DNA of 64,000 bases from an uncultured Synechococcus sp. (GTDB lineage: Bacteria > Cyanobacteriota > Cyanobacteriia > PCC-6307 > Cyanobiaceae): positions 1,105-65,104 of the forward strand of contig CAINZT010000103.1 in NCBI GenBank assembly GCA_903855705.1, written 5' to 3'. Below, piece by piece: positions 25,654-62,804 of this stretch. The notes under the pieces are model-generated. The model saw only the letters and a list, made by a program, of their open reading frames with translations, had not been told where the DNA came from and made no database searches. The first letter of the stretch is position 1; every line of letters starts with the position of its first letter. The position numbers and the translations under genes are program-made.

Positions 25654-25656
25654 TCG

Positions 25657-34884: not shown

Positions 34885-35177
34885 GCGACTTTTCCCTCAA
34901 CGAGGCCCTCTGGGTGTTGCTGCTCGGCAGCCTCCTCGGCTTCGAGCTGATCGGCAAGGTGCCCCCCACCCTGCACACACCGCTGATGTCCGGGGCAAAC
35001 GCCATCAGTGGCATCACCCTGCTGGCAGCCCTGGCCCTGATCGGCCAGGCCCCCTCACCGCCTTTACAAGCGCTTGGGGCCGTGGCCCTGGGCTTTGCCC
35101 TCTTCAACGTGATTGGTGGCTTCCTGGTCACCGACCGCATGCTCGCCATGTTCCGCCGCCGCGGAGGTGCCGCTTGA
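34881..35177 (+). CDS. NAD(P) transhydrogenase subunit alpha, part 2 (membrane)
   Basis: ATG 34881 overlaps the pntAA TGA (ATGA). 98 aa with 3 TM helices (PLMSGANAISGITLL), as expected for PntAB. Confidence 0.85.
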   Translation: MSDFSLNEALWVLLLGSLLGFELIGKVPPTLHTPLMSGANAISGITLLAALALIGQAPSPPLQALGAVALGFALFNVIGGFLVTDRMLAMFRRRGGAA

Positions 35178-43141: not shown

Positions 43142-44308
43142 ATGCGGGTATTGATCTTCACCTCCAGTGGTGGCACCGCCCACGACGCCGCCGCCGAGGC
43201 CCTACGCGATTGGCTGCGCCAGTGGGATCCCGGCGGCGAGGTGTGGATCGAGCAGGTCCTGGAGAACGCCAGCGGCCCCTATCGGAGCGGGGTGGGCTTC
43301 TACAACTGGATCCAGAAGTACGCCCCCTGGATCCATCAGGCCTACTGGTGCCTGATGGAGTTCGAGGACCTCATCAAACCCGGCACTCTCCTGTTCGGCC
43401 GCCGCTATGTGGGCGATCTGCTGCGCCGATTCAAACCAGATCTGATCATTTCCACCCACCCCCACACCAACCGGGGCCACTTTCCTTTCGCCAAGCGCCT
43501 GCTGGGCCCCCAGCTGCGCTGCCTCACCTGCTGCACCGAACTCGCTGGCGGCTTCGGCTTCAGCCGCAACTGGATCAGCTCCCGCGCCGATGCCATCTGG
43601 GTCCAGACCCCCGAAGTTGCCGAAGAACTCCGGCGGCGGCGCTATCCCGCCGAGCGCATCGCCCTGCTGGGTCCCCTGCTGTATCCCGCTTACCACCGCC
43701 CGGTCCCCGCAATCCAGACGCCTGGAACGGGCCCCGAAGCCATTGCCTCTGCCAGGCCTGGGGCTGACGATCCCGACGCAAACAATGGGCTGCCGCTCTT
43801 GGTATTGGGAGCCGGCGCCAATGGGGCCAATAACCATTGCCGGCTGCTGGAGGCCCTCCGGCCCTTCGCCGGCCGATTGGCAGTGGTGGCCCTGACGGGA
43901 CGGCGCCAGGCGGCTTTTGACCAGGTGCAGGCCTGGGCGGCGGCCCATCCGGACCTGGCGGTGCGGGCCCTCGGCTTCCAAGGACCAGAGCAGATGGCGG
44001 CCCTCTATCGCAGGGCCTGGGCCATGGTGGCCCGGCCAGGAGCTCGCACGGCCACCGAAGCCTTGGTATTGGGCTGCCCGCTTGTCTTCAACAGCTTCGG
44101 CACAACCATGCCCCAGGAATGGCTGGCCCGCCGCTATTTCCGCCGGCGCGGCCTGGAGCGCACGATCCATCGGCCTGGGCAGCTGGCGGCCTTGGTGGGC
44201 GATTGGCTGGATCAGCCCGAGAGCTATAGACGCTGGCAGCGTCTCTGCGAAAAGCAGCTGCTCAAGTCTGATCCAATGGTGGTCTGGCAGTTGATCCGGG
44301 GGAACTGA
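43142..44308 (+). CDS. GT28 glycosyltransferase (MGDG-synthase/UgtP-like)
   Basis: MRVLIFTSSGGTAHDAAAEAL... and PDLIISTHP match the MGDG_synth N-domain pattern. The C-terminal half is a GT-B lobe (ARPGARTATEALVLGCPLVFN). Confidence 0.8.
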   Translation: MRVLIFTSSGGTAHDAAAEALRDWLRQWDPGGEVWIEQVLENASGPYRSGVGFYNWIQKYAPWIHQAYWCLMEFEDLIKPGTLLFGRRYVGDLLRRFKPDLIISTHPHTNRGHFPFAKRLLGPQLRCLTCCTELAGGFGFSRNWISSRADAIWVQTPEVAEELRRRRYPAERIALLGPLLYPAYHRPVPAIQTPGTGPEAIASARPGADDPDANNGLPLLVLGAGANGANNHCRLLEALRPFAGRLAVVALTGRRQAAFDQVQAWAAAHPDLAVRALGFQGPEQMAALYRRAWAMVARPGARTATEALVLGCPLVFNSFGTTMPQEWLARRYFRRRGLERTIHRPGQLAALVGDWLDQPESYRRWQRLCEKQLLKSDPMVVWQLIRGN

Positions 44309-44414
44309 GCTGTTATTCGGTAGGCTCAGCTAGCACCGGAGGCGCCAAAAGCGTGATCCTGCAAGGACTTGCAGTTTCCTCAATCCAGCTGAAGACCGCC
44401 CATCAACCGCCGCG

Positions 44415-47400
44415 TTGCCTCCGCCGATCGTCCCTTCGTTGACCTCCTTGCCGTCAGTCCCAAGCCCCGAACCCATTGCGATTGTGGGGATGGGTTGTCG
44501 GCTTCCTGGTGGCATTGGCTCGCCCGAGGCCTTCTGGGAGTTTCTGCGCGATGGGCGCGATGGGATTACGGACGTTCCCGCCAGCCGTTGGGACCTGGGC
44601 CAGCATTTCGATCCCGATCCGCTCAAGCCCCTCAGCCAGCACGTGAGGCGCGGCGGCTTCATTGAAAATATTGACCAGTTTGACGCGGCCTTCTTCGGCA
44701 TCTCGCCGCGGGAAGCCCTCTGCATGGATCCCCAACAGCGCCTGCTGCTGGAGGTGTCCTGGCGCGCCCTGGAGCACGGCGGCCAACCGTTGGAGCGCCT
44801 GCGCGGCCAGCCGGTGGGGGTGTTCATCGGCATCTCCAGCCTCGATTACAGCTCCCTGCTCTGGGCTTCGAGTGAGCACTACGCCACCCCGGATAACGAG
44901 CCGTTCGTGCTGCCGGGCAATACGGGCTGCATTGCCGCCAATCGGATTTCCTACTTCCTCGATCTGAAGGGCCCCAGCTTCACGGTCGACACCGCCTGCT
45001 CCTCCTCACTAGTGGCCGTGCATCTGGCCTGCGAAAGCCTCTGGCGCGGTGAATCCACGGCGGCCCTAGCCGGAGGGGTGCAGGCCCTGATCCATCCGGG
45101 CATCCAAATGAGCTTCTGCAAGGCGGGGCTGCTGGCGCCCGACGGCCGTTGCAAGAGTTTCGATGCCAGCGCCGATGGCTACGTGCGCTCGGAAGGGGCG
45201 GGGGTGGTGCTGCTCAAACCCCTCTCAGAAGCCCGACGCTGCGGCGATCCGATCGTGGCCCTGATCCAGGGCACGGCTGTCAATTCCGACGGCCGCAGCA
45301 ATGGCATGGCCGCCCCCAACCTCAAGGCCCAAATGGCCTGCGTGCGCCAGGCCTTTGCCCGCTCCGGCCTGGAACCGGCCGCCACCCAATACGTAGAAGC
45401 CCATGGCACGGGCACGCGCCAGGGGGATCCGATCGAACTGCGGGCCCTCGGCACGGTGCTGGGCGAAGGACGCCCAAGCGACCAGCCCTGCCGGGTGGGA
45501 TCGGTCAAAACGAACCTGGGCCACGGCGAAACCGCTGCCGGGATCACCGGGTTGATCAAGGCGGCCCTGTGCATCCAGCACCGCCAGATCCCGGCCAGCC
45601 TGCACTTCCGCACGCCCAATCCGGCGATTGATTTCGCCGGGCTGAAACTCCAGGTGCAAACCGCCCTGGAACCCTTCCCAGCCCCGGACCAGCCGGCGGT
45701 GGTGGGGGTGAGTTCCTTTGGCTTTGGCGGCACCAATGCCCATGCGGTGCTGGCCGAGGCGCCGCCGCCGGAAACCGGGTCTCTAGGCGGTCCGCCCCTT
45801 CCCCTCCAGGTATTGACCCTGTCGGCCCGCACCAGCCCAGCCCTACGGGCCACGGCTCGCCGCTACCTGGACTTGCTGCGCCAACGGCCATCCCTGGCCC
45901 TGGCCGATCTCTGCGCCAGCGCCAACCAACAGCGCACCGCCTTCCAGCAGCGCCTGGTCTGTCTGGCCCAAGATCGCACCGATCTGGAACGCCAGCTTGA
46001 GGCCTTTGCCGAGGGCAAGGCCACGGCGACGGAAAACGCCTTAGCGCCGAAAACCACCACGACGCCTGAAGTCGCCCAATCCCCCCTGGTGGCCGTGGCC
46101 GGGCGCCGGCCGGGGAAGGTCGCCTTTCTGATCAGCGGCCAAGGCTCCCAGGAGCTGGCCATGGCCCGGGAGCTCTATGGCCGCCATCCGGTGTTCCGGG
46201 AGGCCTTCGATCGGGCCGCAGCCTTGGCAGACCCCAGCCTGGAGCTGCCCCTGAAGCGGGTGCTGCTGCCGGACCCTGGAGAAGAGCAGCAGGCGGCCCT
46301 GGCCCTGCAGCAAACCGCCATCGCCCAACCAGCCCATTTTGTGGTCGGCTACGCCCTCAGCCAACTCTGGGCCAGCTGGGGGGTGCAGCCAGACCTGCTG
46401 CTCGGCCATGGCGCCGGCGAAGTGTTGGCAGCCCATCTGGCCGGGGTGTTCGACCTGGCCGATGGGATTCGGCTGATCACGGCCCGGGGCCAACTGATGC
46501 AGGCCCTGCCGGCCGACGGGGGCATGGACCCCATGCTGGCTGCCTTTGGCCAGCTCCTGGCCCAACTGAACTTCTCCAAGCCAACTCGGGCCCTGGTTAG
46601 CAGCATCAGCGGTGAGCTGGCTGGAGCAGAACTCACCCAGCCGACCTATTGGTGTGACCAGCTGCTCATGCCGCTGCGATCCGCCAAGGGGGTGGAGACC
46701 CTCAGAGCCCAGGGGGCCAATCTCTTTGTCGATCTGGGGGCCGGGCCCAGCCTGATGGACCTGGCCCGGCAGACCCTGGCCGGCGATCCCGTCCCAGGCC
46801 AGGCCGCCCTTGCACAGGACTCGCTGTTTCTACCCTCCCTGGTGCCTGGCCCAGCCGATTGGAACGTGATCCTGGGCAGCCTGGCCCAGCTGCATCTGCG
46901 CGGCCTGGCGGTTGATTGGCGCGGTTTCCATGCCCCCTTTGCCCAGCGCCGCGTGGCCCTACCGGGCTACCCCTTCGAGCGCCAGCGCCATTGGTGGCCG
47001 GCCAGCCCAGGACCACTCCCCGGCGCCCACCGCTGGCTCGACCACCTGGGCCTGGCCAGCGTTGATCAGGCCCTAGGCGAGCCAGCGACCACGAGCAACG
47101 CCTCCCTTCCACCTTCCCAGCAACAGTCCCTCGGCCTGATCCCGGGAGGAGCCCCCGGCCCTAGCCAAAAAGCGAGCAGCAACGGATGGGCTGGCGTTCA
47201 AAGCCAGGATTTTGCAAGATCAGCATCAACGCAATTAAGCCCCAATGGATGGGCTCACTCCAGCCCGGTAGCGGCTACTAGCCGCACTCCCCAACGGCTG
47301 GATCTGCCCCCGGGCCGGGTCCATTACCAGGTCACCCTCGACCCCAGCCAGCAGGCCGATCTGGCCGACCACGCCATCCGCGACCAGCCCGTCTTTCCGG

Positions 47401-50400
47401 CGGCCGGGTTCCTGGTGCTGGCGGCCCAGGTGGCGGCCGAGGAGGGGCTGGCCCTGAGCTTTGGTCCCCTCAGCCTGGAGCGCCCCCTGCGCCTGGGCGA
47501 TGGCCCCAGGCAGCTGCAATTGGTGCTGGAGGAAGGATCCATCGCCTTCCATAGCCTTAATCCCGCCGAGCGGGCTGGCGGCTGGAGCAGCCATGGCCGC
47601 CTGGGCCTGACCCATGCCCCTGGCCCGATCAGCCCTAGCTCGGCTGGACTGGCCCCGGAAAGCGCCCCCTTCGCCCCAGGTTTGGCCCCAGAGGGCGCCG
47701 AAACCCTTGATACCGCTGGCTTCTACGCAGCCCTAGGCCGCTGCGGCCTGAACTATGGCCCCCGCTTTCGGGGCCTCAAGACGGTGAAACGCCAGGACGG
47801 CCGGGCCTGGGCTGAGCTGGTGCGCCCCGCCGCTGGCGGGGCCGAAGGCCTGCTGGACAGCTGCTTCCAACTGGTGGCCGCCAGCCTGGATCCGGAGGCC
47901 GCCGGCGGCCAGCTGTTCCTGCCCGTGGGCCTGGAGGCCCTGGCCCTGGCGACAGCGGAATGGCCCGAGCGGTTGAGCTGCGAGGTGCGGTTGCAAACCA
48001 ACCCGGAGCCGGCCCAGGTGCAGGCCGACCTGATCTGGCATGCCAACGGACAACTGCTGGGTTGGATTCGGGGCTTCCGCCTGCGCCGCCTGCCGCGCCA
48101 GGCGGTGGACTGGATGTTCCCAGCAGCCCAGCTGCCACCCCCAGAGCCGGCGCTCGATCCGGCCAGCTGGCTGATCCAAAGCCACTGGGAACCGCTTGCT
48201 AAGGATCCGGCCCAAGCCGTTGAAGTCCCCCAGTCGCCTTCAGCCCTAACCCGAGATCTGCCGTTGCTGGATCGGCCCCTGCTGATCGGTGCTGGCAACC
48301 AACAGGCCCAAGCCTTTGGGTCCTGGGCCAGCGCCCAGGGCCAACCGCCCTGGCGCCTTGGCTTTGGCGACCCCCTTCCCGTCGGCAACGGCCCTGTGCT
48401 GGTCTGGCCAGATCCGAACAGAGCCGAGCCCCAGACCTTGGCCACCCAGCTGCTGGCCCTAGTGCAGCAGCTCCAGTCCCCCGGGCCCCAGGCGCCGGCG
48501 GACTCCAACACCGCGCTTCCAGAGCAGGCAACTGGCCTTAGCACCTCAGGCCACCGGCAGCCCCGGCCCCTCTGGCTAGTGCTGGAGGGCGACGGCCCCT
48601 GGACCGGGGTGCTGGCGGGCTTTGCCCAAACGGCCGCCCTGGAAACCCCCCAGCTGGCCTGGACCCACCTGCAGCTCCCCGCCGATCCCCAGCAGCAGCC
48701 CCAGTCCAGGGACTGGGACCAGCTCTGGGCCCTGGCAACCACCGAAGCGAGCTTGCTCTGGCGTTCGGGCCAAATCCATGGGCAACGGCTGAAACGGCTG
48801 GCCCCTGAACGGTTCCGCTTCGTTAGTGAGGACCCCGGCCGCCTCGAAGCCCTAGTGCGCCAGCCCCTAGCGCCAACCACCCTGGTGAATGGCGAGCTGG
48901 AGCTGGCCGTGGAGGCCACCGGCCTGAATTTCCGCGACGTGCTCAATGCCCTGGGCCTGCTGGCGGCCTACGGGGAGGAGCTGGGCCTGGCCGAGGGCGC
49001 CCAGGTGCCCTTTGGCGGCGAGTGCGTGGGCCGGGTGGTGGCGGTGGGTCCCGGCGTGGATCCGGCCCTGGTCGGCCAGCGGGTGTTGGCGGCCCTGGCC
49101 GTGGGCAGCCTGGCCAGCCATGTCAGCTGCCGCTCCGAACTCTGCATCCCCCTACCAACCGGGCTCGATAGCGAAACGGGCGCCAGCCTCAGCACCGTGT
49201 TCCTCACGGCCCTTTACGGGCTGGTGCAGCTGGCCCGGCTCCAGCCGGGGGAAACGGTGTTGATCCATGCGGGCGCCGGCGGCGTCGGCCAGGCCGCCCT
49301 GCAGGTGGCCCGCCACTGCGGTGCCCGCATCCTGGCCACCGCCAGTGCGCCCAAACAACAGGGCCTCCTGGACCAGGGGGTGGAGGCCGTCTTCGACTCC
49401 CGCAGCCTGGCCTTTGCCGAGCAGGTGCGCTCCCATACCGGCGGCAAGGGCGTCGATGTGGTGCTCAACAGCCTCAAGGGGGACTGGGTCGATGCCAGCT
49501 TCCAGGCCCTAGCTCCAGGCGGGCGCTTCATCGAACTGGGCAAAATTGAGATCTGGAGCCGGACCCAAGCCCAGGAGCGCCGCCCCGATGCGGCCTACCT
49601 GCCCTTCGACCTGCTGGAGGTGGCCGCCGCCGAGCCCCAGCTGGTGCGCCAGCTGCTCCTCGACTTTTTGGCCGACCTGGAGCAGGGCACCTACCAGCCC
49701 ATTCCGATTGAGGTGTATCCGATCTCGGCGGTGCCGGAGGCCTTCCGGCTCCTGGCCCAGGCCCGGCACCGGGGCAAGGTAGTCGTGCGCCAGGACGAGC
49801 GGTCCGCGCCCCTGACGATTGGGTCCCAGGCCACATACCTGATCACGGGCGCCCTGGGAGGCATCGGCCTGCGGCTGATCGACTGGCTGGCCCAACGGGG
49901 AGCCACCTCCCTGCTGCTCGTCAGCCGCTCGGCTGGGGCACCCGCGCCGGAGGTCCAGCACCGGCTTCAGGAGCTGGAGGCCCGGGGCGTCCGCTGCAGC
50001 CTGGTGGCCCTCGATCTGGCCGCCGGCCCAGGCACAGCATCCACCTCCGTCCTGGCCGATGCGATCCGGGCCTTGCCATCCGAGCAGCCCTTACGCGGCC
50101 TATTCCATGCCGCTGGCGTGCTGGACGACGGCCTGGTCGGCGGCCTTACGCCCGAGCGGCTGGCGGCCGTGCTGGCGCCCAAGTTGGCCGGCTGGCAACT
50201 GGTGGAGGCCGCCATTGCCGAAGCGAAAGGGTCCGATGGTCTGGCCTTTTCCATCGCCTTTTCATCGCTGGCATCCTTGCTGGGATCACCCGGTCAGGCC
50301 GCCTATGGGGCCGCCAACGGGGGCCTCGATGCCCTCTGCCGCCAGGAGTTCGCTGATAGGGATGCCCTTGATGGGGAGGCCGCTTGTGGGGAGGCTGCTT

Positions 50401-53620: not shown

Positions 53621-53632
53621 TCAGGCCGGAGC

Positions 53633-54265
53633 TCACCTAGCCAGCATCAGCCGCCTAAGGACCCCCATGGACTGGCGCAGATTGGCCTCATTGAGGTCGT
53701 CGTAGGTCGGCCGCAAAAAAGCGGGTAGATCGGGCTCCAGGTCGATCTGGTGTTGCACGAGCACACCAGCCCGCACAGGGGTCAAGCTCCACTGCCCCTG
53801 CAAGCTGAGAATGCGCTCGCCGCGGAGCATGCGATAGCGCATCAACCGGGGTGGACTTTCCTCGACCGCGAGCACGACCTTGATCGGCAGGCCGAAGGTG
53901 GAGGCGGCCTGGTAGGTCTGGGCGAGCTCCAGCTGGTTGCCGTGGCGGCTGAGCACCTTGGCCTGCTTGATGTCGGGCATCAGGCCCGCCATCGCTTCGT
54001 AATTGGTCAGCACGGCCCAGGCCCGGGCCTGGTTCACGGGCACAAAGAACTTGGCGGTGTAATGCCCCTTACTACCGATCAGGACCAAATCGCCTAACGC
54101 CTGGGCCATCTGACCGCCCGCGCCAGCCGGGTCGGCCCGGGCCCCTTGGCCTAGACACCACCAGCTCACGCCAGTGGCCACGCTTAGGATCAGCCCATGC
54201 AAAAGCAGCCACTGGAAGGGTCCAGCTGGCTGCTTGCCTAACGCCCTGGAGCCCCCCATGACCAT
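53633..54265 (-). CDS. SRPBCC (START/polyketide-cyclase-like) lipid-binding protein with N-terminal signal/TM
   Basis: ...KFFVPVNQARAWAVLTNYEAMAGLMPDIKQAKVL...LELAQTYQA...MRYRMLRGERILSLQGQW is typical of cyclase/dehydrase-type SRPBCC proteins. ATG 54265 precedes a hydrophobic segment. Confidence 0.65.
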   Translation of the reverse strand: MVMGGSRALGKQPAGPFQWLLLHGLILSVATGVSWWCLGQGARADPAGAGGQMAQALGDLVLIGSKGHYTAKFFVPVNQARAWAVLTNYEAMAGLMPDIKQAKVLSRHGNQLELAQTYQAASTFGLPIKVVLAVEESPPRLMRYRMLRGERILSLQGQWSLTPVRAGVLVQHQIDLEPDLPAFLRPTYDDLNEANLRQSMGVLRRLMLAR

Positions 54266-54289
54266 GTTTCTGCAGCGAATCAAACCATT

Positions 54290-57381: not shown

Positions 57382-57811
57382 AGAAGCCCTGAATCATCGA
57401 CATTCACCAAGCCAAGCAAAAGACTAGAAAAGGAGCCCCATCTCTCTATTTCTCGCCTGCTAAAGCTATTCAGGCTTCCAAAAATTGATGAAATTTGCTC
57501 ACAGCTCCGCCACCCCAAAGGCAGGCTTCTCCTCAGCAGAAATACAACGCTAGCGTCCAACGGCCAATCCATTAAACCTAATCCGATGGAAGCCAAATAC
57601 ACTGTTCCGCGCTGAAGAAGCAGGCTTCACTGAGATATCCAACTAATTGGCCAGGCCAAGACATTTTGGCAATATTTGCATAGGGGAGATGAATCCTACC
57701 AACAGAGTGCTAATGTTTAGCAAGATATGCGTGGCTCCACGAGAGGCCGCTCCACCCAAGATGCCCTCCCCATCTGTAAGGCCCCTCGCGGAGCGTATTG
57801 GCTTCAGTTGG

Positions 57812-59017
57812 ATGACAGCAGCGATTTTTTTGCTTCCCCTGCTGCCCCCGCTGGCCGCCCTGGCTGCGTCCCCTCCCCCTGGCGCCAAGCGCCCAGCGTT
57901 GGTGCCCCAACAACGGGCGCGGGTGACCTACGACACCTACTTGTTGGGCCCTGGGGACAGTTTGCAAATTGAACTGGAGAACATCCCCGAGCTGTCTGGG
58001 ACCTTCACGATTGGCCCCGATGGCACCCTCTATTTACCCAGGCTAAGAGCTCTGTTTGTTGAAGGTCTAAGCGTCGAGGAGCTGCGCGTTTTCCTGACCC
58101 AGCAGTTTCGAGCCTTTGTCCGCCAGCCCGAAATCTACCTGCGCCCGGTTGGCTATCGGCCGGTGCGGATTTATGTCGGTGGGGAGGTGCGTCGCCCGGG
58201 CTACTACACCTTGAGTGGTAGTCAGCAACTGGGCGGGGTCTCCAGTAGCGCTGATAATGCGATTCGAGAGAGTGGCGGTGACCAGATGGCTAGCCGCCCC
58301 GGTCTTAGCAGTGGCCAGGGTCTGGACTCAGGCAGCCGCGCCAGCAGCAGCGTCCCGGGCGCCGGCGGGGGGGGATCGGGTGGTCTCACAACCTATGGCG
58401 CCTTTTTCCCGACCGTTTTTGATGCCATTCGGGCAGCGCAAGGAATTACGCCCTACTCCAACCTTTCCTCAGTTCAAGTCACCCGCAAACTTCCACTCAG
58501 TAGCGGTGGGGGCAAAATAAGGACGTCCCTCAACTTTCTATCCCTAATTACCGAGGGCGACGAAAGCCAGAACATTCGTCTATTTGATGGCGACGTGGTC
58601 AGTATCTCCAAATCCCCCATCGTGTTGCGAGAGCAGCTCCTCAAGGCCGGTCAAACCAACCTGAGCCCCCAATTCATCACGGTCTACGTGAGTGGAAGGG
58701 TCAAGCTGCCCGGGGCAACTACATTGCCCCAGGGAGCCAGCCTTAATCAAGCCTTGATAAGCGCCGGTGGCCAACAGCTTCTCCATGGAAAAATTGAATT
58801 CGTGCGCTTTACCCGAGAAGGGGAACTCGATCGACGGGTCTTCAATTACAACGCAAATTCGGCATCAGATTCGGCAACCAATCCGATTTTGGTGAGTGGT
58901 GACATCATACGGGTTCAAGAATCAGCCTTTTCTGCTGGAGTTGGCATTCTCAACGAACTAACCGGCCCATTTGTCGGTATTTACTCCGTCTACAGCCTCT
59001 TTAGAGGTACTCGCTAA
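57812..59017 (+). CDS. Wza-like polysaccharide export protein (Poly_export + SLBB)
   Basis: Signal peptide from ATG 57812 (MTAAIFLLPLLPPLAALAAS), Poly_export signature YLLGPGDSLQIEL...GPDGTLYLPRL, and SLBB-like repeats (VYVSGRVKLPGATTLPQGASLNQALISAGG). Confidence 0.8.
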   Translation: MTAAIFLLPLLPPLAALAASPPPGAKRPALVPQQRARVTYDTYLLGPGDSLQIELENIPELSGTFTIGPDGTLYLPRLRALFVEGLSVEELRVFLTQQFRAFVRQPEIYLRPVGYRPVRIYVGGEVRRPGYYTLSGSQQLGGVSSSADNAIRESGGDQMASRPGLSSGQGLDSGSRASSSVPGAGGGGSGGLTTYGAFFPTVFDAIRAAQGITPYSNLSSVQVTRKLPLSSGGGKIRTSLNFLSLITEGDESQNIRLFDGDVVSISKSPIVLREQLLKAGQTNLSPQFITVYVSGRVKLPGATTLPQGASLNQALISAGGQQLLHGKIEFVRFTREGELDRRVFNYNANSASDSATNPILVSGDIIRVQESAFSAGVGILNELTGPFVGIYSVYSLFRGTR

Positions 59018-60733
59018 GTGATGAACCCATCCCTACAACCTCCCAGCCAGCCCATGCCAGCTGATGACGAAATTGACCTTGGCCAGCTAGCGGCAAGCCT
59101 GGGTCGTCGTCGCCGGCTGATCGCTGTTGTCACCGGTGGAACGGTCGTCCTCACCGGCTTACTCACGCTCCTACAGAAGCCCGTTTGGGAAGGGGAATTC
59201 CAAATTGTGTTGGCTAGTCAGGATAAGGGAGGCGGTCGCCTCGCCCAGCTTGCCGCCGCCAATCCGATGCTGGCAGGGGTTGCAATGCTTGGCACTGGCG
59301 GAGGCAGGGATAGCCTGGAAACGGAAGTCAAAATCCTGGAAAGTCCTTCCGTGCTAATGCCGGTCTTTGACTTTGTGCGTAGCTCGAAGATTGCAGCCGG
59401 GGAAGACATCAATCGGCTTCGTTATGATGCCTGGATCAAGAACAATCTTGATATCAAGCTCGAGAAAGGCACGTCCATTCTCAACATTTCCTACCGAGAT
59501 AATGACAAGCGCCTAATCCTACCCGTCATCGAAAAAATTTCCAAGACCTATCAGGATTACTCGGGCAGGGACCGACGCAGAGATATTTCCCAAGCCGTAG
59601 CCTATTTAAAAGGTCGCATTGCCAAAATTAGCCCAGAAGCTGATGCTTCCATGCGTCATGCCCAAGCCTTTGCCCTCTCCAATGGCCTGGGTATCCAAGA
59701 TGGCATTCCCACGGTTGCCAGCTCGGGGATGGAGGTGGGAGGGTCATCAGGAGCGAGTTCGGGATCCGTTGAGACGAATCGACTGACGGCCCAGGCCCAG
59801 GTGATTACCCTGCGCCAACAAATACGCAATGCGCAAGCCGCTGGCGCCGAAGTGCTCTTCCAGGCTCCCCAGCTAGAGGCCAATAAGGATCTCTACAAGC
59901 AGTATCAAAGTCTGGAGTCAAACCTGGCCGAACGACGCAGCCGCCTCAGGGAAAAAGATCCAATCATTGTGGGGCTGCTGCGTCAAAAAAGCGCCTTGAT
60001 CAATACCCTGAATCGGGAAACAATCTCCCTGCTGCAGGGCCAATTAGCATCCGCAAATGCTCGGCTTCAAGCCGCATCTCGTCCCAAAGAAGTGGTGCTA
60101 CAGCATCGCCAATTGGTGCGCCAGGCCCTGCGGGATGAGAAAACCTTGATCGAACTCGAAAACCAAATGCAGTTGGCTTCCTTAGAGCAAGCCAAGCAGA
60201 CCGATCCCTGGGAACTCATTTCAAACCCCACCCTGCTTGATCGCCCGGTAGCCCCTAAGAAAGGTCGCAACCTGGCCTTGGGGTTGTTGGCCGGTTTGGT
60301 GCTGGGAAGCGGGGCTGCCCTGGTGGCGGAACGGCGTACCGGTCGGATCCATGGCTCCGATGAACTGGCGTCCCTCTTGCCCGGTCCCCTTCTGGCCGTA
60401 CTCGAGGCGGATCAGCCAGCCGCTTGGAGCCAGCCGCTGCAATTGCTCAGTAGTGGACCCCTCGCTGGCGCCAGCACCCTTGCCCTGGTGTCGATCGGCT
60501 TGACCGCGGACGTTGCCGAGCCGATTGCCCAGGCCCTCCAGGCGGCGTCGGGTCGGCCCGTGCTCTGCAGCAGTGATCTGGTGGCGACCCGTAGTTGTGA
60601 TGCCCAGGTGCTTCTGACCAGCCCCGGAGCCGCTGAACGGGACCAGTTGCAACGGCTGCGGCGGGATTTGGAGCTGCAGGGCAGCCCTGTGGTCGGCTGG
60701 CTGCTGCTGAGCGCCCCCCGGCCCCATGGCTGA
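59018..60733 (+). CDS. Wzz/GumC-type chain-length-determinant (PCP) protein without recognisable kinase P-loop
   Basis: N-terminal Wzz segment (DDEIDLGQLAASLGRRRRLIAVVTGGTVVLTGLLTLL...FQIVL), a long coiled-coil, a second TM (LALGLLAGLVLGSGAALV), and a C-terminal domain lacking GxxGxGKS/T. Starts at GTG 59018 or ATG 59021, directly after the wza-like stop. Confidence 0.75.
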   Translation: MMNPSLQPPSQPMPADDEIDLGQLAASLGRRRRLIAVVTGGTVVLTGLLTLLQKPVWEGEFQIVLASQDKGGGRLAQLAAANPMLAGVAMLGTGGGRDSLETEVKILESPSVLMPVFDFVRSSKIAAGEDINRLRYDAWIKNNLDIKLEKGTSILNISYRDNDKRLILPVIEKISKTYQDYSGRDRRRDISQAVAYLKGRIAKISPEADASMRHAQAFALSNGLGIQDGIPTVASSGMEVGGSSGASSGSVETNRLTAQAQVITLRQQIRNAQAAGAEVLFQAPQLEANKDLYKQYQSLESNLAERRSRLREKDPIIVGLLRQKSALINTLNRETISLLQGQLASANARLQAASRPKEVVLQHRQLVRQALRDEKTLIELENQMQLASLEQAKQTDPWELISNPTLLDRPVAPKKGRNLALGLLAGLVLGSGAALVAERRTGRIHGSDELASLLPGPLLAVLEADQPAAWSQPLQLLSSGPLAGASTLALVSIGLTADVAEPIAQALQAASGRPVLCSSDLVATRSCDAQVLLTSPGAAERDQLQRLRRDLELQGSPVVGWLLLSAPRPHG

Positions 60734-62804
60734 GCCCTTTCCCTTGGGATCCCGGCGCTGGGCCTCGGCCCTTGTCGTGGCGACGGTGGCCCTTCAACCG
60801 GTCCAGGCCCAGCCCAGTTGGCAAGGCGTTTCGCCGCAAAAACCCTCTGGCGGTCAGAGCGCCGCGGGCCTGCCCCAGTGGCAACGGATCCCCCCTGCCG
60901 ATCCAATCGCCGGGGGCCGGTCCACCCCTGGGGGCAAGCAGGGAGCACCGATCTGGCAGCCCCTGCCTGGGGCCGCAGGCCCTTCCCCCCAGCTGGTTTG
61001 GGAGCCCGTAGCTCCAGTAGCAGCAGAGTCCAAACCAGGGATCGGAAGCCCTGGGGCCAAGCCTGGAAGTCCCCTGCCCCAGAGCTGGACCCGAACGAGC
61101 TCAGCAGATCCGCTTTCAGACGGAGCGGCACGCCAGGCCAAACCCGTGGCCGCGCCCCCCACCAGCCCGGCGGAAGCCCAGGCCCTGCTGGATGGGCTCA
61201 AGCCCACAGCCGCCGATTACACCCCCCAACTCCGCCTGGGTGAGGCCGTGCCCACGGCCCAGCAACTCTCCGACCAACAAAGTCAGCTGTCCTTCTTCCA
61301 GTTGGCCCCTTTTGGCGGCGCTAAGCAGGGCAGTGGCGGCGGCACCGGCAACCAGAATTATGCCGCCAGGCTGGATGCGGGCTTAACGGATCAGGTTCAG
61401 ATTTCGGCGTTTTATAGCGTTGCTGATGATCCGCTCTACGCGCCGATCACGGGCAAGATCATTCAGCCCGCCAATTTCTGGGAGAGCTATGGCGGGGCCT
61501 TGCAATGGCGTCTGCTCGGTTCGAGCAACACCCCATGGAAGCTAGCCATCGCAGGCTCGCTGGAGGGATGGACGGTGGGCAGCGGTGGCTGCGATTCCTT
61601 CTCCTGTAAAGGCCAGAACAATGCCAGTCCCAATATTTTCAACAACTCTGGCAGCCGGGTACAAACCACCAACCTGGTAGGTTCCCTGTCCCTACCGATG
61701 ACCTGGCAGGCCCTACCGAGCTTGGCGCTCAGCGTTACGCCGGGAGTGAGCTTTTTGCCCGGTAGCCAGGGCGAAGGACAAGGCGGCAGTGGACCCTTCT
61801 ATGGCACGAACGTGAATGTGGCTGCCGGTGCCAGTTGGCGACCGATCCCCAGCCTGACCCTATTCGGCTCGGGGTTAATGCCCCTGGGACCTGGCAACAA
61901 CAGTTTTAACGGCAATTTGGTTTTCGCCAGGGTTCCGATTCTCACGGCGGGCGTCAATTGGGCCCTGAACCCCCGCATTGCCTTAGAAGGCCAACTCACC
62001 AACGGCTGGGGTGCCACCCCTGCCACCGCCCTGCTCGCCCTGCCTTCCGACAATCGCCTGGGCTATTCGGGGCGCTTTGTGTTTACCCCTGGAGCGCTTG
62101 ACACGCCCCAGCCCGCCATGACCACGCGCCAACGGTCCCTTGCCCTGGGGGGGCTCACGGTGAATACGGCCTTAGTGCCGGCCCGGGGCACCACGGAGCT
62201 CTGGGCGAATGGCGATAGCCAGGGAGATGGCTTTGGCTACATCGGCTATTCGCTCTCCAATCTTTTCCAGCTAGATGTGTATAAGGGTGGTGCCTTCAAT
62301 AATGTGCGACCGCTGAACGCTCTTTCAACAACCTATGCCAGCGACGGTGGCTGGAACTATCGCTATGGCGGCAAGGCGATTGCCATGAGCCAACTGAGGG
62401 GGGCTCCCTTTTCGCTCGGCGGTCGCATCAGCCTAGGTCGCAATACGGACCCAGCCAGCTACCAGGGCTATATGTTTGTCGAATCCGTTTCCACCTGGGA
62501 GGCCAATTCCTGGCTAGCCCTCAATTTCAACCCCAAACTGGCCTGGAGCGGCGTTAGCACCCCCTGGGGGGTGGGCCTGGGTGCCAATATCCAATTGGGG
62601 CCCCACTTCCAGCTGATCCCAGAAGTGAATGTGGTGGGATCTCAGATCAGTGCCACCAACGGGACCCTGGCCCTGCGCTGGCTGGCCACAAGCAGCACCA
62701 ATTTGGAATTTTATGTCAGCAATGCAGCCGGCCTGTTTGACATGGGCCAACTCCTGGACAACACCAACGTGCGGGTGGGTGGCCGCTTGCTATTTAGTTT
62801 TTAG
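60726..62804 (+). CDS. putative outer-membrane beta-barrel protein
   Basis: Overlaps the upstream stop by 8 nt. It has a signal peptide (ALVVATVALQPVQAQ), a Pro/Gly-rich ~130-aa region, then alternating beta-strand-like sequence rich in G/S/N/Y, ending in ...VGGRLLFSF (C-terminal Phe). Confidence 0.55.
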   Translation: MAEPFPLGSRRWASALVVATVALQPVQAQPSWQGVSPQKPSGGQSAAGLPQWQRIPPADPIAGGRSTPGGKQGAPIWQPLPGAAGPSPQLVWEPVAPVAAESKPGIGSPGAKPGSPLPQSWTRTSSADPLSDGAARQAKPVAAPPTSPAEAQALLDGLKPTAADYTPQLRLGEAVPTAQQLSDQQSQLSFFQLAPFGGAKQGSGGGTGNQNYAARLDAGLTDQVQISAFYSVADDPLYAPITGKIIQPANFWESYGGALQWRLLGSSNTPWKLAIAGSLEGWTVGSGGCDSFSCKGQNNASPNIFNNSGSRVQTTNLVGSLSLPMTWQALPSLALSVTPGVSFLPGSQGEGQGGSGPFYGTNVNVAAGASWRPIPSLTLFGSGLMPLGPGNNSFNGNLVFARVPILTAGVNWALNPRIALEGQLTNGWGATPATALLALPSDNRLGYSGRFVFTPGALDTPQPAMTTRQRSLALGGLTVNTALVPARGTTELWANGDSQGDGFGYIGYSLSNLFQLDVYKGGAFNNVRPLNALSTTYASDGGWNYRYGGKAIAMSQLRGAPFSLGGRISLGRNTDPASYQGYMFVESVSTWEANSWLALNFNPKLAWSGVSTPWGVGLGANIQLGPHFQLIPEVNVVGSQISATNGTLALRWLATSSTNLEFYVSNAAGLFDMGQLLDNTNVRVGGRLLFSF

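What the first reader, a model, noticed from the sequence alone, without database searches (positions are those of the whole stretch)
43142..62804. Self-contained PKS / two-glycosyltransferase / P450 / envelope-export island: candidate pathway for a glycosylated long-chain lipid
About 20 kb of mostly co-directional, partly translationally coupled genes combine five functions. (1) A GT28 MGDG-synthase-like glycosyltransferase. (2) A single-module, fully reducing type I PKS that has no loading module and ends in a thioester-reductase domain; it would be expected to extend a pre-made fatty acyl starter by one C2 unit and release an aldehyde or alcohol. (3) A membrane GT2 whose ATG overlaps the PKS stop. 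(4) An SRPBCC lipid-binding protein, a membrane GxSxG hydrolase and a P450 whose start overlaps the hydrolase stop (ATGA). (5) A Wza-like / Wzz-like / beta-barrel trio, with an MFS gene just upstream of the island. The logic of reductive release, then hydroxylation, then glycosylation, then export across the outer membrane resembles fatty-alcohol glycoside pathways such as heterocyst glycolipids. Here it is compressed into one megasynthase in a unicellular-type genome and paired with a polysaccharide-style exporter rather than DevBCA/TolC. I do not recognise this gene combination as a described cluster.
Basis: partly seen in the sequence, partly recalled or inferred. Interest (0 to 1): 0.8.

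Follow-up and report, generated by a model that had tools for sequence, protein, structure and literature searches.

The report
Conserved picocyanobacterial PKS glycolipid-export gene cluster
This is a real, uncharacterised gene cluster, shared by some freshwater and marine picocyanobacteria (Cyanobium, Synechococcus, Prochlorococcus), that most likely builds a sugar-decorated long-chain lipid and sends it to the cell surface.

Summary
All ten ORFs, their domain families and the ATGA start/stop overlaps sit at the stated coordinates.

- The SRPBCC gene is on the minus strand.
- The upstream MFS gene belongs to the cluster.
- The PKS acyltransferase (AT) domain is dead in this genome: GHSxG is now GHGAG, and a ~73-aa deletion removes the HAFH subdomain.
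- Freshwater orthologues keep an intact malonyl-type AT. Marine orthologues lack the AT entirely. I infer that malonyl loading in trans is tolerated.

**Conservation**
- The genome scan returned 48 loci, all apparently picocyanobacterial (four MAG records carry other names); 44 remained after removing duplicates.
- Where sequence allows: PKS 35/35, SRPBCC 43/43, P450 39/40, GT2 33/39.
- The barrel gene is adjacent in 25/31 loci and the full export trio in 19/27.
- The genes stay together through inversions and reordering.

**Fit of the enzyme families**
- Both glycosyltransferases belong to lipid-acceptor families (MGDG-synthase/YpfP-like; HpnI/GT21-like).
- The P450 is CYP4/46/97-like.
- The exporter resembles class-3 OPX/PCP/β-barrel polysaccharide translocons.

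**Verdict**
- It is not an hgl island, an olefin synthase, or Calteau's cluster family CF-20.
- I found no paper describing it.
- The product is unknown. A lipid-anchored glycan is the main rival reading.
- I rate it a new variant of a known kind, with interest 0.6.

The parts
41659..43083 (+). MFS transporter (DHA3/Mef-like); candidate inner-membrane exporter or flippase. It belongs to the conserved cluster.
   Evidence: Pfam MFS_1 2.3e-13 and TIGR00900 3e-16. At least 9 hydrophobic segments. An MFS gene lies next to GT28 or the PKS in marine and rearranged loci. No PDB relative at E<0.01, so it is not demonstrably LtaA-like.
43142..44308 (+). GT28-type (MGDG-synthase/YpfP-like) glycosyltransferase with no TM segment; predicted to glycosylate a lipid hydroxyl.
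   Evidence: Pfam MGDG_synth 35.3 bits (cutoff 25). NCBIfam diglucosyl-DAG synthase 4e-17, below the equivalog cutoff. PDB: processive DAG β-glucosyltransferase 9wde 2.2e-9 and plant MGD1 4wyi 2.5e-8. Conserved upstream of the PKS.
44415..52238 (+). Single-module type I PKS, KS-AT*-DH-ER-KR-ACP-R, 2607 codons from TTG, with no loading module.
   Evidence: Pfam and NCBIfam domain calls. Motifs. Uninterrupted ORF. Orthologue present in 35/35 loci that reach far enough.
44469..45764 (+). KS domain, catalytically complete.
   Evidence: DTACSS (Cys), HGTGT and NLGH are invariant in 18 orthologues. Identity is 72-96%, the most conserved part of the protein.
46110..46994 (+). Degenerate AT domain. 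The active-site Ser is Gly (GHGAG, residue 666, nt 46410-46412). An in-frame deletion of ~73 aa after residue ~704 (nt ~46527) removes the small subdomain and the HAFH motif.
   Evidence: The Pfam AT match covers only profile positions 2-130 of 319. No GHSxG or HAFH motif. In the alignment, freshwater orthologues have GHSxGE and mostly HAFH (L009 has LGFH), while marine orthologues lack ~330 aa here. The same lesion is present in an independent 98.2%-identical contig, L054.
47295..48134 (+). DH domain.
   Evidence: Pfam PKS_DH_N and PS-DH. His986 in HxxxDxxxxP, GLNYGPRF, and DxxxQ (sequence shown).
48825..49799 (+). ER domain.
   Evidence: ADH_N, ADH_zinc_N and ADH_zinc_N_2. GGVGQAA NADPH motif. 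58-92% identity to orthologues.
49812..50384 (+). KR domain (B-type, LDD motif).
   Evidence: Pfam KR 8.9e-40. TGALGGIG, LDD, and catalytic Tyr in GQAAYGAANG.
50790..51014 (+). ACP.
   Evidence: PP-binding 3.8e-11. LGLDSL with Ser2158.
51132..52214 (+). Terminal thioester reductase (R) domain; reductive release as aldehyde or alcohol.
   Evidence: NAD_binding_4 4.9e-56. TIGR01746 271 bits, above the 213 cutoff. TGSTGFLG and YSQTK.
52235..53620 (+). Membrane GT2 (HpnI/GT21-like). Its ATG overlaps the PKS stop.
   Evidence: Glyco_transf_21 35.2 bits (cutoff 21.7) and Glyco_tranf_2_3. HpnI model 9.6e-16 over nearly full length, below the equivalog cutoff. Conserved DADA, CEDT and RQLLTARLHH motifs. 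N-terminal and C-terminal TM segments. ATGA overlap. No PDB relative by sequence.
53633..54352 (-). SRPBCC/START-like lipid-binding protein with one N-terminal TM or signal anchor; divergent from the hydrolase gene. The true start is probably downstream of the listed TTG.
   Evidence: Polyketide_cyc2 2e-9. TM at residues 49-67. Present on the opposite strand in 43/43 loci. Called as 186-228 aa in related loci.
54290..55690 (+). Cluster-specific membrane α/β-hydrolase-like protein (GHSSG), found only in the picocyanobacterial loci examined.
   Evidence: No Pfam or NCBIfam family. 195 homologues; every source-named hit in the listing is cyanobacterial. Invariant S323 (GHSSG), D387/D393 and H444. 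AF2 pLDDT 73.6 with a helical insert at residues 176-311. Foldseek hits are all lipases, esterases or type II thioesterases but weak (best E 4.5e-3). 2-3 TM segments.
55687..57381 (+). Cytochrome P450 (CYP4/46/97-like), translationally coupled to the hydrolase gene.
   Evidence: p450 1.7e-64. PDB best matches are 7wzl, CYP97 (LUT5), CYP46A1 and CYP4B1. AGHETS, ETLR and FGLGPRKCPG motifs in the translation. ATGA overlap. Present in 39/40 loci.
57647..59017 (+). OPX protein (Poly_export plus two SLBB) with no detectable Wza_C. The signal peptide begins near residue 56, so the real start is probably ~57812.
   Evidence: Pfam. PDB matches cover only Wza domain D1. NCBIfam EpsY/EpsE/PEP-CTERM export models, below cutoffs. 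Conserved 30-aa C-terminal tail. Hydrophobic segment at residues 51-69.
59018..60733 (+). PCP (Wzz/GNVR) with two TM segments, a ~365-aa periplasmic domain, and a ~130-aa cytoplasmic tail in which I saw no Walker A motif by eye.
   Evidence: Wzz 2.2e-11 and GNVR 3.3e-4. TM at residues 34-52 and 419-437. The periplasmic domain is hypervariable between strains of 98% nucleotide identity.
60726..62804 (+). Probable outer-membrane β-barrel protein of an undescribed family. It is the export component most tightly linked to the biosynthetic genes.
   Evidence: No Pfam or PDB match, even with a 19-sequence profile. Signal peptide, variable Pro-rich N-terminal region, a conserved ~520-aa domain with two conserved Cys, and a C-terminal ...LFSF. 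335 clusters at 50% identity. Distant cyanobacterial members hit DUF5777 'membrane bound beta barrel' at 1e-5 and OMP_b-brl. Adjacent to P450 in 25/31 loci. Single-sequence AF2 was uninformative.

Best explanation
Window 41659-62804 is one accessory biosynthetic gene cluster of picocyanobacteria. It most likely makes a glycosylated, PKS-derived long-chain lipid and places it in or beyond the outer membrane.

**Proposed sequence of steps.** Domain content is shown; the order of steps and the substrates are inferred.
1. The KS of the single-module PKS is primed with a fatty acyl thioester from primary metabolism, because there is no loading module.
2. Its ACP is malonylated. Freshwater orthologues can do this with their own AT. 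This genome and the AT-less marine orthologues would need an enzyme acting in trans, probably the housekeeping FabD.
3. KS, KR, DH and ER extend and fully reduce the chain, either once or iteratively.
4. The terminal R domain releases a fatty aldehyde or primary alcohol.
5. The CYP4/46/97-like P450 adds a further hydroxyl. The hydrolase/acyltransferase-like membrane protein, which is translationally coupled to the P450, modifies the lipid. The membrane-anchored SRPBCC protein may bind or hand over the hydrophobic intermediate.
6. The HpnI/GT21-like membrane GT2 and the MGDG-synthase/YpfP-like GT28 attach sugars to the lipid hydroxyls.
7. The MFS pump moves the product across the inner membrane (an MsbA-like ABC transporter is encoded in Prochlorococcus-type loci). 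The PCP/OPX pair and the cluster-specific putative β-barrel take it across the periplasm and outer membrane.
For: **Gene identities.**

**Active-site motifs.**
- Intact in KS, DH, ER, KR, ACP and R.
- Invariant in 18 orthologues for the KS.

**AT lesion.** It is real and shared by an independent contig of 98.2% nucleotide identity. The rest of the 7.8-kb ORF stays open, and the AT remnant is as conserved as the other domains.

**AT in orthologues.** Intact in freshwater forms (HAFH in most, LGFH in L009) and cleanly missing in marine forms. The pathway therefore persists without a cis-AT.

**Co-conservation** over 44 non-duplicate picocyanobacterial loci at 39-90% identity of the hydrolase-like marker protein:
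- SRPBCC 43/43, P450 39/40, PKS 35/35, GT2 33/39, barrel 25/31, full trio 19/27.
- The trio is inverted relative to the core in most lineages yet remains adjacent.
- In L026, L029 and L037 the same genes occur in another order.

**Translational coupling.** PKS/GT2 and hydrolase/P450 overlap as ATGA.

**Acceptor type.** Both GT families act on lipid acceptors. The nearest relatives are DAG glucosyltransferase and MGD1, and HpnI and GT21.

**Marine loci.** They add an epimerase/dehydratase, a UDP-glucose 6-dehydrogenase and an MsbA-type ABC transporter.
Against: - No product is known and nothing was tested chemically.
- PCP/OPX modules are otherwise known as polysaccharide exporters, not glycolipid exporters (PMC9601211, PMC9603273).
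- The PCP/OPX pair is replaced by a Wzc/Wzb/OPX set in close relatives. It is absent next to the core in Cyanobium FACHB-13342 and T1B-Tous. Its link to the lipid genes is therefore looser than that of the barrel gene.
- GC content of the OPX/PCP stretch (0.555-0.57) differs from that of the PKS (about 0.69-0.70).
- The AT in this genome is dead, so the pathway here depends on an unproven trans-acylation or may be inactive.
- The GT2 could be processive.
- The barrel fold is not demonstrated.
Confidence: 0.62

Rival explanations
1. **Lipid-anchored or lipid-primed glycan.** The PKS makes a special lipid alcohol. The GT28 primes it with a first sugar. The membrane GT2 acts as a processive synthase that polymerises and translocates a glycan. 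The PCP/OPX/β-barrel machine exports the resulting capsule- or EPS-like polymer. This is analogous to capsule clusters that contain a monomodular PKS (wcbR/rkpA).
For: - The PCP, OPX and putative barrel are of the type that exports polysaccharides. Class-3 or D1D2 OPX proteins pair with an 18-stranded barrel (PMC9601211, PMC9603273).
- Close relatives carry a full Wzc-like PCP plus a Wzb-like phosphatase at the same place.
- The GT2 has the N-terminal TM / GT-A / C-terminal TM layout and D, DxD, ED and RQxxxxR motifs shared with processive GT2 synthases.
- Monomodular type I PKS genes inside capsule biosynthesis and export clusters are documented for wcb and rkp (PMC3908369).
- Marine loci add UDP-glucose dehydrogenase and an epimerase, which are typical of acidic polysaccharides.
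Against: - There is no Wzx, Wzy, initiating phosphoglycosyltransferase, KpsM/T, KpsC/S or TPR scaffold in the cluster.
- Only two GTs are present.
- The canonical QxxRW is not present.
- The best family matches of the GT2 are non-processive lipid GTs (HpnI, GT21).
- Two Cyanobium genomes keep the core without any adjacent PCP/OPX/barrel.
Confidence: 0.22
2. **Two unrelated neighbours.** A lipid-tailoring PKS cluster (MFS to P450) lies next to a general exopolysaccharide exporter that serves some other polymer. The adjacency is inherited synteny without functional coupling.
For: - A 266-nt AT-rich gap and a GC drop separate the two parts.
- The exporter module is exchangeable and sometimes missing.
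- A ~2-kb mosaic tract is confined to the PCP gene and the 5' part of the barrel gene.
Against: - Adjacency survives an inversion of the trio relative to the core across freshwater and marine lineages at 40-55% protein identity.
- The barrel gene stays next to P450 even where PCP/OPX are replaced.
- No polysaccharide assembly genes that the exporter could serve instead are present nearby in the window.
Confidence: 0.11
3. **Inactive in this lineage.** In this particular genome the pathway is switched off. The AT lesion marks the start of pseudogenisation, and the cluster is a decaying remnant. This reading overlaps with the other three explanations and is not an exclusive alternative to them.
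For: The catalytic Ser is replaced by Gly, and the subdomain carrying the catalytic His is deleted.
Against: - All ten genes have open frames, including a 7.8-kb ORF.
- The lesion is shared by a second strain with 98.2% nucleotide identity and no further damage.
- The AT remnant and all other domains remain as conserved as in relatives.
- Marine orthologues have lost the whole AT yet conserve everything else.
Confidence: 0.1

Closest known systems
Heterocyst (heterocyte) glycolipid pathway, hgl island (HglE/F/G/D/C/A/B, HglT, DevBCA-HgdD)
   Same: The overall logic matches. A cyanobacterial PKS builds a long reduced chain, a thioester reductase releases it, a hydroxylated fatty alcohol is glycosylated, and the product is deposited outside the outer membrane (PMC11804610 for the hgl gene set).
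   Different: - Here one modular-type megasynthase replaces the multi-subunit PUFA-synthase-like enzymes. The PfaA model scores 333 bits against 1110 for a modular PKS model.
- The GTs are GT28 and GT2, and a P450 is present.
- Export is by MFS plus PCP/OPX/barrel, not an ABC-TolC system.
- The hosts are unicellular and non-diazotrophic.
- The 2025 hgl survey text does not mention picocyanobacteria.
Class-3 / D1D2 OPX plus 18-stranded β-barrel polysaccharide translocons (Myxococcus xanthus EpsY/EpsX = WzaX/WzpX, ExoA/ExoB, WzaB/WzpB)
   Same: An OPX with Poly_export and SLBB domains and no recognisable Wza_C pore helix is encoded next to a PCP and a signal-peptide protein that looks like an outer-membrane barrel (PMC9601211, PMC9603273).
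   Different: - The barrel family here has no detectable sequence relation to any solved chain, including PgaA and AlgE, and its fold is unproven.
- There is no Wzx/Wzy or ABC-2 pathway in the cluster.
- The neighbours are lipid-biosynthesis genes.
- A conserved 30-aa OPX tail is unexplained.
Capsule clusters with a monomodular type I PKS (Burkholderia wcbR, rhizobial rkpA)
   Same: A single-module type I PKS is encoded together with polysaccharide biosynthesis and export genes, and is thought to supply a lipid moiety (PMC3908369).
   Different: - Those clusters use KpsM/T-type ABC transport and Kps-like export (from my own knowledge, not tested here).
- The present cluster has an R-domain release, a P450, two lipid-type GTs, SRPBCC and an MFS instead.
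- Orthology of the PKS to WcbR/RkpA was not tested.
Mycocerosic-acid-synthase-type iterative PKSs (MAS, Pks2, Pks5)
   Same: The reducing module is identical (KS-AT-DH-ER-KR-ACP), begins directly with the KS, and is primed by a preformed fatty acyl chain. MAS is among the top PDB matches (E 6e-204) and the Pks2 model scores 842 bits.
   Different: - Scores are below the equivalog cutoffs.
- Here a terminal R domain is fused.
- Where the AT is intact in orthologues it carries the malonyl-type HAFH motif.
- No FAAL partner is encoded nearby.
YpfP (UgtP) with LtaA in Staphylococcus: a GT28 glycolipid synthase next to an MFS glycolipid flippase (from my own knowledge)
   Same: A GT28 DAG-glucosyltransferase-like gene lies directly beside an MFS gene.
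   Different: - The MFS here is DHA3/Mef-like and matched no solved MFS structure, LtaA included.
- The acceptor lipid is presumably the PKS product, not diacylglycerol.
HpnI (hopanoid GlcNAc transferase) and GT21 ceramide glucosyltransferase
   Same: A membrane GT2 matches over its full length, and both reference enzymes glycosylate a lipid hydroxyl.
   Different: It scores 57.6 bits against an equivalog cutoff of 310. There are no hopanoid or sphingolipid genes in the cluster.

Membership tests
Type I fully reducing PKS module with terminal thioester reductase | KS with the Cys-His-His triad | tested here: met
   DTACSS, HGTGT and NLGH, invariant in 18 orthologues.
Type I fully reducing PKS module with terminal thioester reductase | Cis-AT with GHSxG Ser and the HAFH/YASH His | tested here: not met
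   The window has GHGAG and lacks the small subdomain. The feature is met in freshwater orthologues (HAFH in most, LGFH in L009). The domain is absent in marine orthologues.
Type I fully reducing PKS module with terminal thioester reductase | DH, ER, KR and ACP with catalytic or cofactor motifs | tested here: met
   Pfam hits. H986, GYxYGP, DxxxQ, GGVG, TGALGGIG, LDD, Tyr, and DSL.
Type I fully reducing PKS module with terminal thioester reductase | Terminal R domain above the curated cutoff | tested here: met
   TIGR01746 271 bits against a cutoff of 213.35. TGSTGFLG and YSQTK.
Heterocyst glycolipid (hgl) island | PUFA-synthase-like multi-subunit PKS (HglE/F/G/D/C/A/B) | tested here: not met
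   There is a single modular-type ORF. The PfaA model scores 333 bits (cutoff 1010). The best matches are modular PKSs.
Heterocyst glycolipid (hgl) island | ABC/MFP/TolC exporter (DevBCA-HgdD) and an HglT-type GT | tested here: not met
   The window cluster encodes an MFS, PCP, OPX and barrel. The GTs match GT28 and GT2/GT21 models.
Olefin synthase (Ols) | FAAL-ACP loading and C-terminal sulfotransferase-thioesterase | tested here: not met
   No AMP-binding, sulfotransferase or thioesterase domains. The protein starts with KS at residue 19 and ends with R.
Calteau et al. 2014 cluster family CF-20 (picocyanobacterial PKS) | A single PKS gene cluster of ~2.96 kb | tested here: not met
   All CF-20 entries are 2955-2972 bp. 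The PKS here is 7.8 kb and lies in a 21-kb cluster.
Class-3 (D1D2) OPX / β-barrel composite translocon | OPX with Poly_export and SLBB but without a Wza_C outer-membrane helix | tested here: inconclusive
   There is no Wza_C hit even at E<=10 in five orthologues, and PDB matches stop at Wza D1. However, a conserved ~30-aa C-terminal tail exists.
Class-3 (D1D2) OPX / β-barrel composite translocon | Adjacent PCP with a Wzz domain and two TM helices | tested here: met
   Wzz 2.2e-11, GNVR, and TM at residues 34-52 and 419-437.
Class-3 (D1D2) OPX / β-barrel composite translocon | Adjacent integral outer-membrane 16-18-stranded β-barrel | tested here: inconclusive
   A signal peptide and a C-terminal Phe are present, and distant homologues hit DUF5777 and OMP_b-brl. 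There is no Pfam or PDB match.
Class-3 (D1D2) OPX / β-barrel composite translocon | Embedded in a Wzx/Wzy- or ABC-2-dependent polysaccharide assembly cluster | tested here: not met
   No Wzx, Wzy, PGT or ABC-2 genes lie between 41.6 and 64 kb. An ABC-2 transporter lies 17 kb away at 23867-26445.
wcbR/rkpA-type capsule clusters | Monomodular type I PKS encoded with capsule export genes | tested here: met
   The PKS lies in the same cluster as OPX and PCP genes. This is a resemblance only.
wcbR/rkpA-type capsule clusters | KpsM/T ABC transporter and KpsC/S-type linker enzymes; orthology of the PKS to WcbR/RkpA | not tested
   No Kps-like models were hit by the cluster proteins. No WcbR or RkpA sequence was available for a direct comparison.
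GT28 MGDG-synthase / YpfP family | Pfam MGDG_synth above the gathering score | tested here: met
   35.3 bits against 25. The NCBIfam equivalog cutoffs were not reached (62 against 500), so this gives family-level membership only.
HpnI / GT21 lipid glycosyltransferases | Family model above its cutoff | tested here: inconclusive
   Glyco_transf_21 scores 35.2 against 21.7, which is met. The HpnI equivalog scores 57.6 against 310, which is not met.

The most novel reading that the evidence does not exclude
A polysaccharide-type envelope machine (PCP plus a short OPX plus a new family of outer-membrane barrel) has been recruited in picocyanobacteria for a new cargo. That cargo is either a PKS-made hydroxy-fatty-alcohol glycolipid, or a glycan built on such a lipid. 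The result would be a previously unrecognised surface lipid class in Prochlorococcus, Synechococcus and Cyanobium. Its synthase is also caught in the act of changing from cis-AT to trans-loaded: the AT is intact in most freshwater strains, crippled here, and deleted in marine strains.
Probability: 0.3. Interest if true: 0.8.

Novelty: new variant of a known kind. Interest (0 to 1): 0.6.

Why it matters
- **A rare, conserved cluster in important organisms.** Picocyanobacteria are among the most abundant phototrophs on Earth and carry few biosynthetic gene clusters. A 21-kb cluster kept intact from freshwater Cyanobium to oceanic Prochlorococcus points to an unrecognised envelope lipid or lipoglycan.
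- **Possible ecological role.** Such a product could affect grazing, phage adsorption, aggregation or vesicle release. The patchy distribution, the exchangeable exporter and the hypervariable tract in the PCP gene and the barrel gene's N-terminal region fit a surface trait under diversifying selection.
- **AT domain loss.** The cluster gives a natural series of AT loss (intact, point-inactivated with a subdomain deletion, and fully deleted) inside one orthologous PKS. This is useful for understanding how trans-acylated synthases arise.
- **A candidate new barrel family.** It supplies a candidate new outer-membrane barrel family linked to OPX export.
- **Limited payoff if the simple reading is right.** If the product turns out to be a simple alkyl glycoside, this is a useful but ordinary orphan-cluster assignment.

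Tried and rejected
1. **Calteau CF-20.** I first equated the cluster with the 'PKS CF-20 widely distributed in picocyanobacteria'. The supplement shows CF-20 clusters are ~2.96 kb single genes, so I rejected this. Only the 6537-bp orphan PKS listed for CC9311 might be an AT-less orthologue; I did not verify that.
2. **hgl or hgl-like island.** Rejected on synthase type, GT type and exporter.
3. **Olefin synthase.** Rejected because there are no FAAL, ST or TE domains.
4. **Full-length PKS homologue search.** The KS-AT query returned mainly generic actinomycete and myxobacterial modular PKSs at ~46% identity, so it gave no informative outgroup.
5. **Barrel protein.**
   - A profile search against PDB and Pfam found nothing.
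   - Single-sequence AF2 gave pLDDT 29 and was discarded.
6. **MFS as an LtaA-like flippase.** There was no PDB match at E<0.01, so the parallel remains an analogy only.
7. **GT2 against PDB.** No sequence match. Processivity could not be decided from motifs.
8. **Foldseek of the hydrolase model.** All hits are α/β-hydrolases but weak (best E 4.5e-3, TM about 0.2-0.3). This supports the fold class and no specific function.
9. **Promoter and terminator scan.** It gave 0 promoter-like sites, and the 18 terminator-like sites were modestly above the shuffle mean of 11.7 (sd 2.9). It was not informative for this high-GC cyanobacterium.
10. **Rfam.** Only two tRNAs and no regulatory RNA in the window.
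11. **Literature.** Searches for a characterised product in CC9311, Prochlorococcus, Cyanobium or picocyanobacteria found none.

Full report
**1. Is it there?**

Yes. ORF listing gives ten genes at or next to the stated coordinates:

| Gene | Coordinates | Strand |
|---|---|---|
| MFS | 41659-43083 | + |
| GT28-like | 43142-44308 | + |
| PKS | 44415-52238 | + |
| GT2 | 52235-53620 | + |
| SRPBCC | 53633-54352 | − |
| GxSxG protein | 54290-55690 | + |
| P450 | 55687-57381 | + |
| OPX | 57647-59017 | + |
| PCP | 59018-60733 | + |
| 692-aa protein (BB) | 60726-62804 | + |

Reading the junctions confirms the PKS/GT2 and hydrolase/P450 ATGA overlaps, an 8-nt PCP/BB overlap, and a 266-nt AT-rich spacer before the OPX gene. 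The SRPBCC gene is on the opposite strand, and the 'hydrolase' and the last gene match no curated family.

**2. Host and setting.**

- Every source-named homologue of the cluster-specific hydrolase-like protein is cyanobacterial: Cyanobium, Synechococcus or unclassified cyanobacterial MAGs.
- The closest genome records are freshwater 'Synechococcus sp. UW140' MAGs (taxonomy).
- Genes upstream are housekeeping: cysS, dxr, pntAB, an NTRC-like reductase, gltX and polA.
- A 98.2%-identical contig shows ABC permease genes downstream.
- The cluster is therefore an insertion in a core-genome neighbourhood.

**3. Are the genes a unit?**

A scan of one genome per species, using a profile of the hydrolase-like protein, returned 48 loci. 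Most are labelled as freshwater Synechococcus/Cyanobium, marine Synechococcus or Prochlorococcus single-cell genomes. Four MAG records carry other names (Pimelobacter, Chitinophaga, Klebsiella), which I take to be mislabels.

I ran tblastn of all window proteins against these loci and counted only loci with enough flanking DNA:

| Gene | Loci with the gene / loci long enough |
|---|---|
| SRPBCC | 43/43 |
| P450 | 39/40 |
| PKS | 35/35 |
| GT2 | 33/39 |
| BB | 25/31 |
| Complete trio | 19/27 (three more with BB only) |

- GT28 and the MFS precede the PKS wherever the flank reaches them.
- In most lineages the trio is inverted (BB-PCP-OPX, convergent with P450). It is direct only in the window's clade.
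- In L026, L029 and L037 the same genes occur in a different order.
- Conservation through inversion and reshuffling, at 39-55% protein identity, is strong evidence for a functional unit.

**4. The synthase.**

The PKS begins with the KS at residue 19 and has no loading domain. Its order is KS-AT-DH-ER-KR-ACP-R.

- KS Cys-His-His, DH His/GYxYGP/DxxxQ, ER GGVG, KR (TGALGGIG, LDD, Tyr), ACP DSL and R (TGSTGFLG, YSQTK) are all intact.
- The R domain passes its curated cutoff.
- The AT is not intact. Pfam matches only the first 130 of 319 profile positions, the nucleophile elbow reads GHGAG, and no HAFH is present.
- An alignment of 18 orthologues gives three states:
  - Freshwater relatives have GHSxGE and, in most, a malonyl-type HAFH; L009 reads LGFH with the last His retained.
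  - The window has Ser to Gly plus a ~73-aa in-frame deletion of the small subdomain.
  - All Prochlorococcus-type and marine Synechococcus orthologues lack the entire ~330-aa AT while keeping the flanking linkers.
- The window's lesion is also present in an independently assembled contig of 98.2% nucleotide identity.
- The AT remnant is as conserved as the other domains.
- I infer that the cis-AT is dispensable and that malonyl-ACP is made in trans, probably by FabD. This step is inferred, not shown.
- Whether the module acts once or iteratively cannot be read from sequence. MAS-type iterative synthases with the same layout are among the best structural relatives.

**5. Tailoring genes.**

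- **GT28.** It reaches the Pfam MGDG_synth threshold. Its nearest solved relatives are a processive diacylglycerol β-glucosyltransferase and plant MGD1.
- **GT2.** It has one N-terminal and several C-terminal TM segments and conserved DADA, CEDT and RQLLTARLHH motifs. It reaches the Glyco_transf_21 threshold and matches the HpnI model over its full length, below the equivalog cutoff. Both families glycosylate lipid hydroxyls.
- **P450.** It carries the I-helix, EXXR and Cys-ligand motifs. It is closest to CYP97, CYP46 and CYP4 enzymes, which act on isoprenoid, sterol or fatty chains.
- **Hydrolase-like protein.**
  - Its homologues come only from picocyanobacteria in the searches run.
  - It has an invariant GHSSG, two invariant Asp and an invariant His.
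  - Its AF2 model (pLDDT 73.6) has a long helical, membrane-embedded insert.
  - It resembles only α/β-hydrolases, weakly.
  - Its role (esterase, acyltransferase or thioesterase) is open.
- **SRPBCC.** It has a single N-terminal anchor.

**6. Export genes.**

- **OPX.**
  - It has Poly_export and two SLBB domains and a signal peptide, with no lipobox that I could see.
  - It has no detectable Wza_C.
  - This places it with class-3 / D1D2 OPX proteins, which in Myxococcus work with an adjacent 18-stranded barrel (PMC9601211, PMC9603273).
  - A conserved 30-residue C-terminal tail keeps this assignment open.
- **PCP.** It has the classic two-TM topology and a short cytoplasmic tail in which I saw no Walker A motif by eye.
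- **BB.**
  - It has a signal peptide, a variable Pro-rich N-terminal region, a strongly conserved ~520-aa domain and a C-terminal ...LFSF.
  - It matches nothing in Pfam or PDB, even as a profile.
  - It belongs to a family of 335 clusters at 50% identity.
  - Distant members of that family, from Synechocystis and Elainellaceae, give weak hits to 'membrane bound beta barrel' DUF5777 and OMP_b-brl.
  - A barrel is likely but not shown.
- **Exchangeable PCP/OPX.**
  - Relatives whose hydrolase-like protein is 89-90% identical to the window's carry, at the same place, BB plus a 798-aa Wzc-like PCP, a different OPX and a Wzb-like phosphatase (see also L006, L028 and L047).
  - Two Cyanobium genomes have none of the three next to the core.
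  - The OPX/PCP stretch has lower GC than the rest of the cluster.
  - Between the window and its 98%-identical relative, a ~2-kb tract covering the PCP periplasmic domain and the BB N-terminal region is highly diverged, while the BB core is more than 99% identical.
- **Marine additions.** Prochlorococcus-type loci add an epimerase/dehydratase, a UDP-glucose 6-dehydrogenase and an MsbA-like ABC transporter.

**7. Best explanation.**

This is a cluster for a PKS-derived, reductively released, hydroxylated and glycosylated lipid that is exported to the cell surface (confidence about 0.6).

- *Shown:* gene content, intact catalytic motifs, the AT states, co-conservation and translational coupling.
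- *Inferred:* the starter, the number of extensions, aldehyde versus alcohol release, the position of hydroxylation, the sugars, the order of steps, and the cargo of the exporter.

**8. Rivals.**

- **(a) A lipid-primed glycan or capsule.** The GT2 would act as a synthase. This is favoured by the polysaccharide-type exporter and by the precedent of wcbR/rkpA capsule clusters that contain a monomodular PKS (PMC3908369). It is disfavoured by the absence of any polymer-assembly genes and by the GT2's best family matches.
- **(b) Two unrelated neighbouring modules.** This is disfavoured by adjacency that survives inversion, and by the persistence of BB.
- **(c) Decay in this genome.** This is disfavoured by open frames, a shared allele and the AT-less but otherwise conserved marine forms.

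**9. Known or new?**

- It is not an hgl island, an olefin synthase or CF-20.
- Full-text searches for a characterised picocyanobacterial PKS/GT/P450 cluster found only generic genome-mining mentions.
- The library lacks most subscription journals, and I could not run antiSMASH or MIBiG, so 'undescribed' is provisional.
- All parts belong to known families. The combination, the AT-loss series and the barrel family are new. I file it as a new variant of a known kind, with interest 0.6.

Noticed in passing
window 59193-61155 (PCP periplasmic domain and the 5' part of the barrel gene), compared with L054: Against a contig that is 98.2-98.5% identical on both sides, this ~2-kb tract is mosaic. The PCP is only 61% identical overall; by eye, the TM and cytoplasmic parts are nearly identical and the periplasmic domain far less so. 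The barrel protein's Pro-rich first ~135 residues are much more diverged, while its core is more than 99% identical. The tract coincides with a GC dip to 0.555-0.60. This suggests recombination or diversifying selection on periplasmic or surface parts.
   Followed up: partly
L057-L059 (and L006, L028, L047), downstream of P450: Relatives whose hydrolase-like protein is 89-90% identical to the window's keep the barrel gene. They replace the window's OPX-PCP pair with a 798-908-aa Wzc-like PCP, a 32-35%-identical OPX on the other strand, and a low-molecular-weight tyrosine phosphatase (Wzb-like). The downstream flank is the same. The exporter module has been swapped in place.
   Followed up: partly
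window 58928-59017 (OPX C-terminal ~30 aa): The tail SAxSAG(I/V)xVLNELTGPFVGVYSVYSLF is conserved in nearly all OPX orthologues, from freshwater to Prochlorococcus-type loci, and matches no Pfam model (no Wza_C). It could be a short outer-membrane helix or a docking motif for the barrel.
   Followed up: partly
L004, L024, L027, L030, L035 (Prochlorococcus-type loci), beyond the OPX gene: Marine versions of the cluster carry an NAD-dependent epimerase/dehydratase, a UDP-glucose 6-dehydrogenase and an MsbA-like ABC transporter. This hints at uronic-acid- or pentose-type sugars and at an alternative inner-membrane exporter. The epimerase also occurs in the rearranged freshwater loci L026 and L029.
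   Followed up: partly
L036, L046 (marine Synechococcus): The MFS gene directly precedes the AT-less PKS, and no GT28 homologue is detected within the locus. GT28 is therefore not universal.
   Followed up: no
L003/L042 and L019 (Cyanobium FACHB-13342, T1B-Tous), 12.7-15.8 kb: Instead of the export trio, these loci have a second MFS gene on the opposite strand and a 575-aa protein with a GHSLGG motif, which suggests another α/β-hydrolase. It is unrelated to the barrel protein.
   Followed up: partly
window 54265-54352: The mechanical ORFs of the divergent SRPBCC and hydrolase genes overlap by ~60 nt at their 5' ends. SRPBCC genes are called as 186-228 aa in related loci, so its real start is probably internal. 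The two genes would then share a short divergent promoter region.
   Followed up: no
window 23867-26445: An ABC-2-type transporter operon (one ATPase and two ABC2_membrane_6 permeases) lies 17 kb upstream of the cluster. A link to the exporter was not tested.
   Followed up: no
window 10765-10840 and 11333-11409 (minus strand): tRNA-Asp(GTC) and tRNA-Trp(CCA) genes lie next to gltX. They are the only Rfam matches in the window.
   Followed up: yes
window 28937-30331 (minus strand): A fused thioredoxin reductase-thioredoxin (NTRC-like) gene. A pntA/pntB transhydrogenase pair lies at 33532-36580. These are ordinary cyanobacterial housekeeping genes.
   Followed up: no
L009, PKS AT domain: One freshwater orthologue has GHSAGE, but LGFH in place of HAFH. 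This may be another step of AT drift in the window's clade.
   Followed up: no
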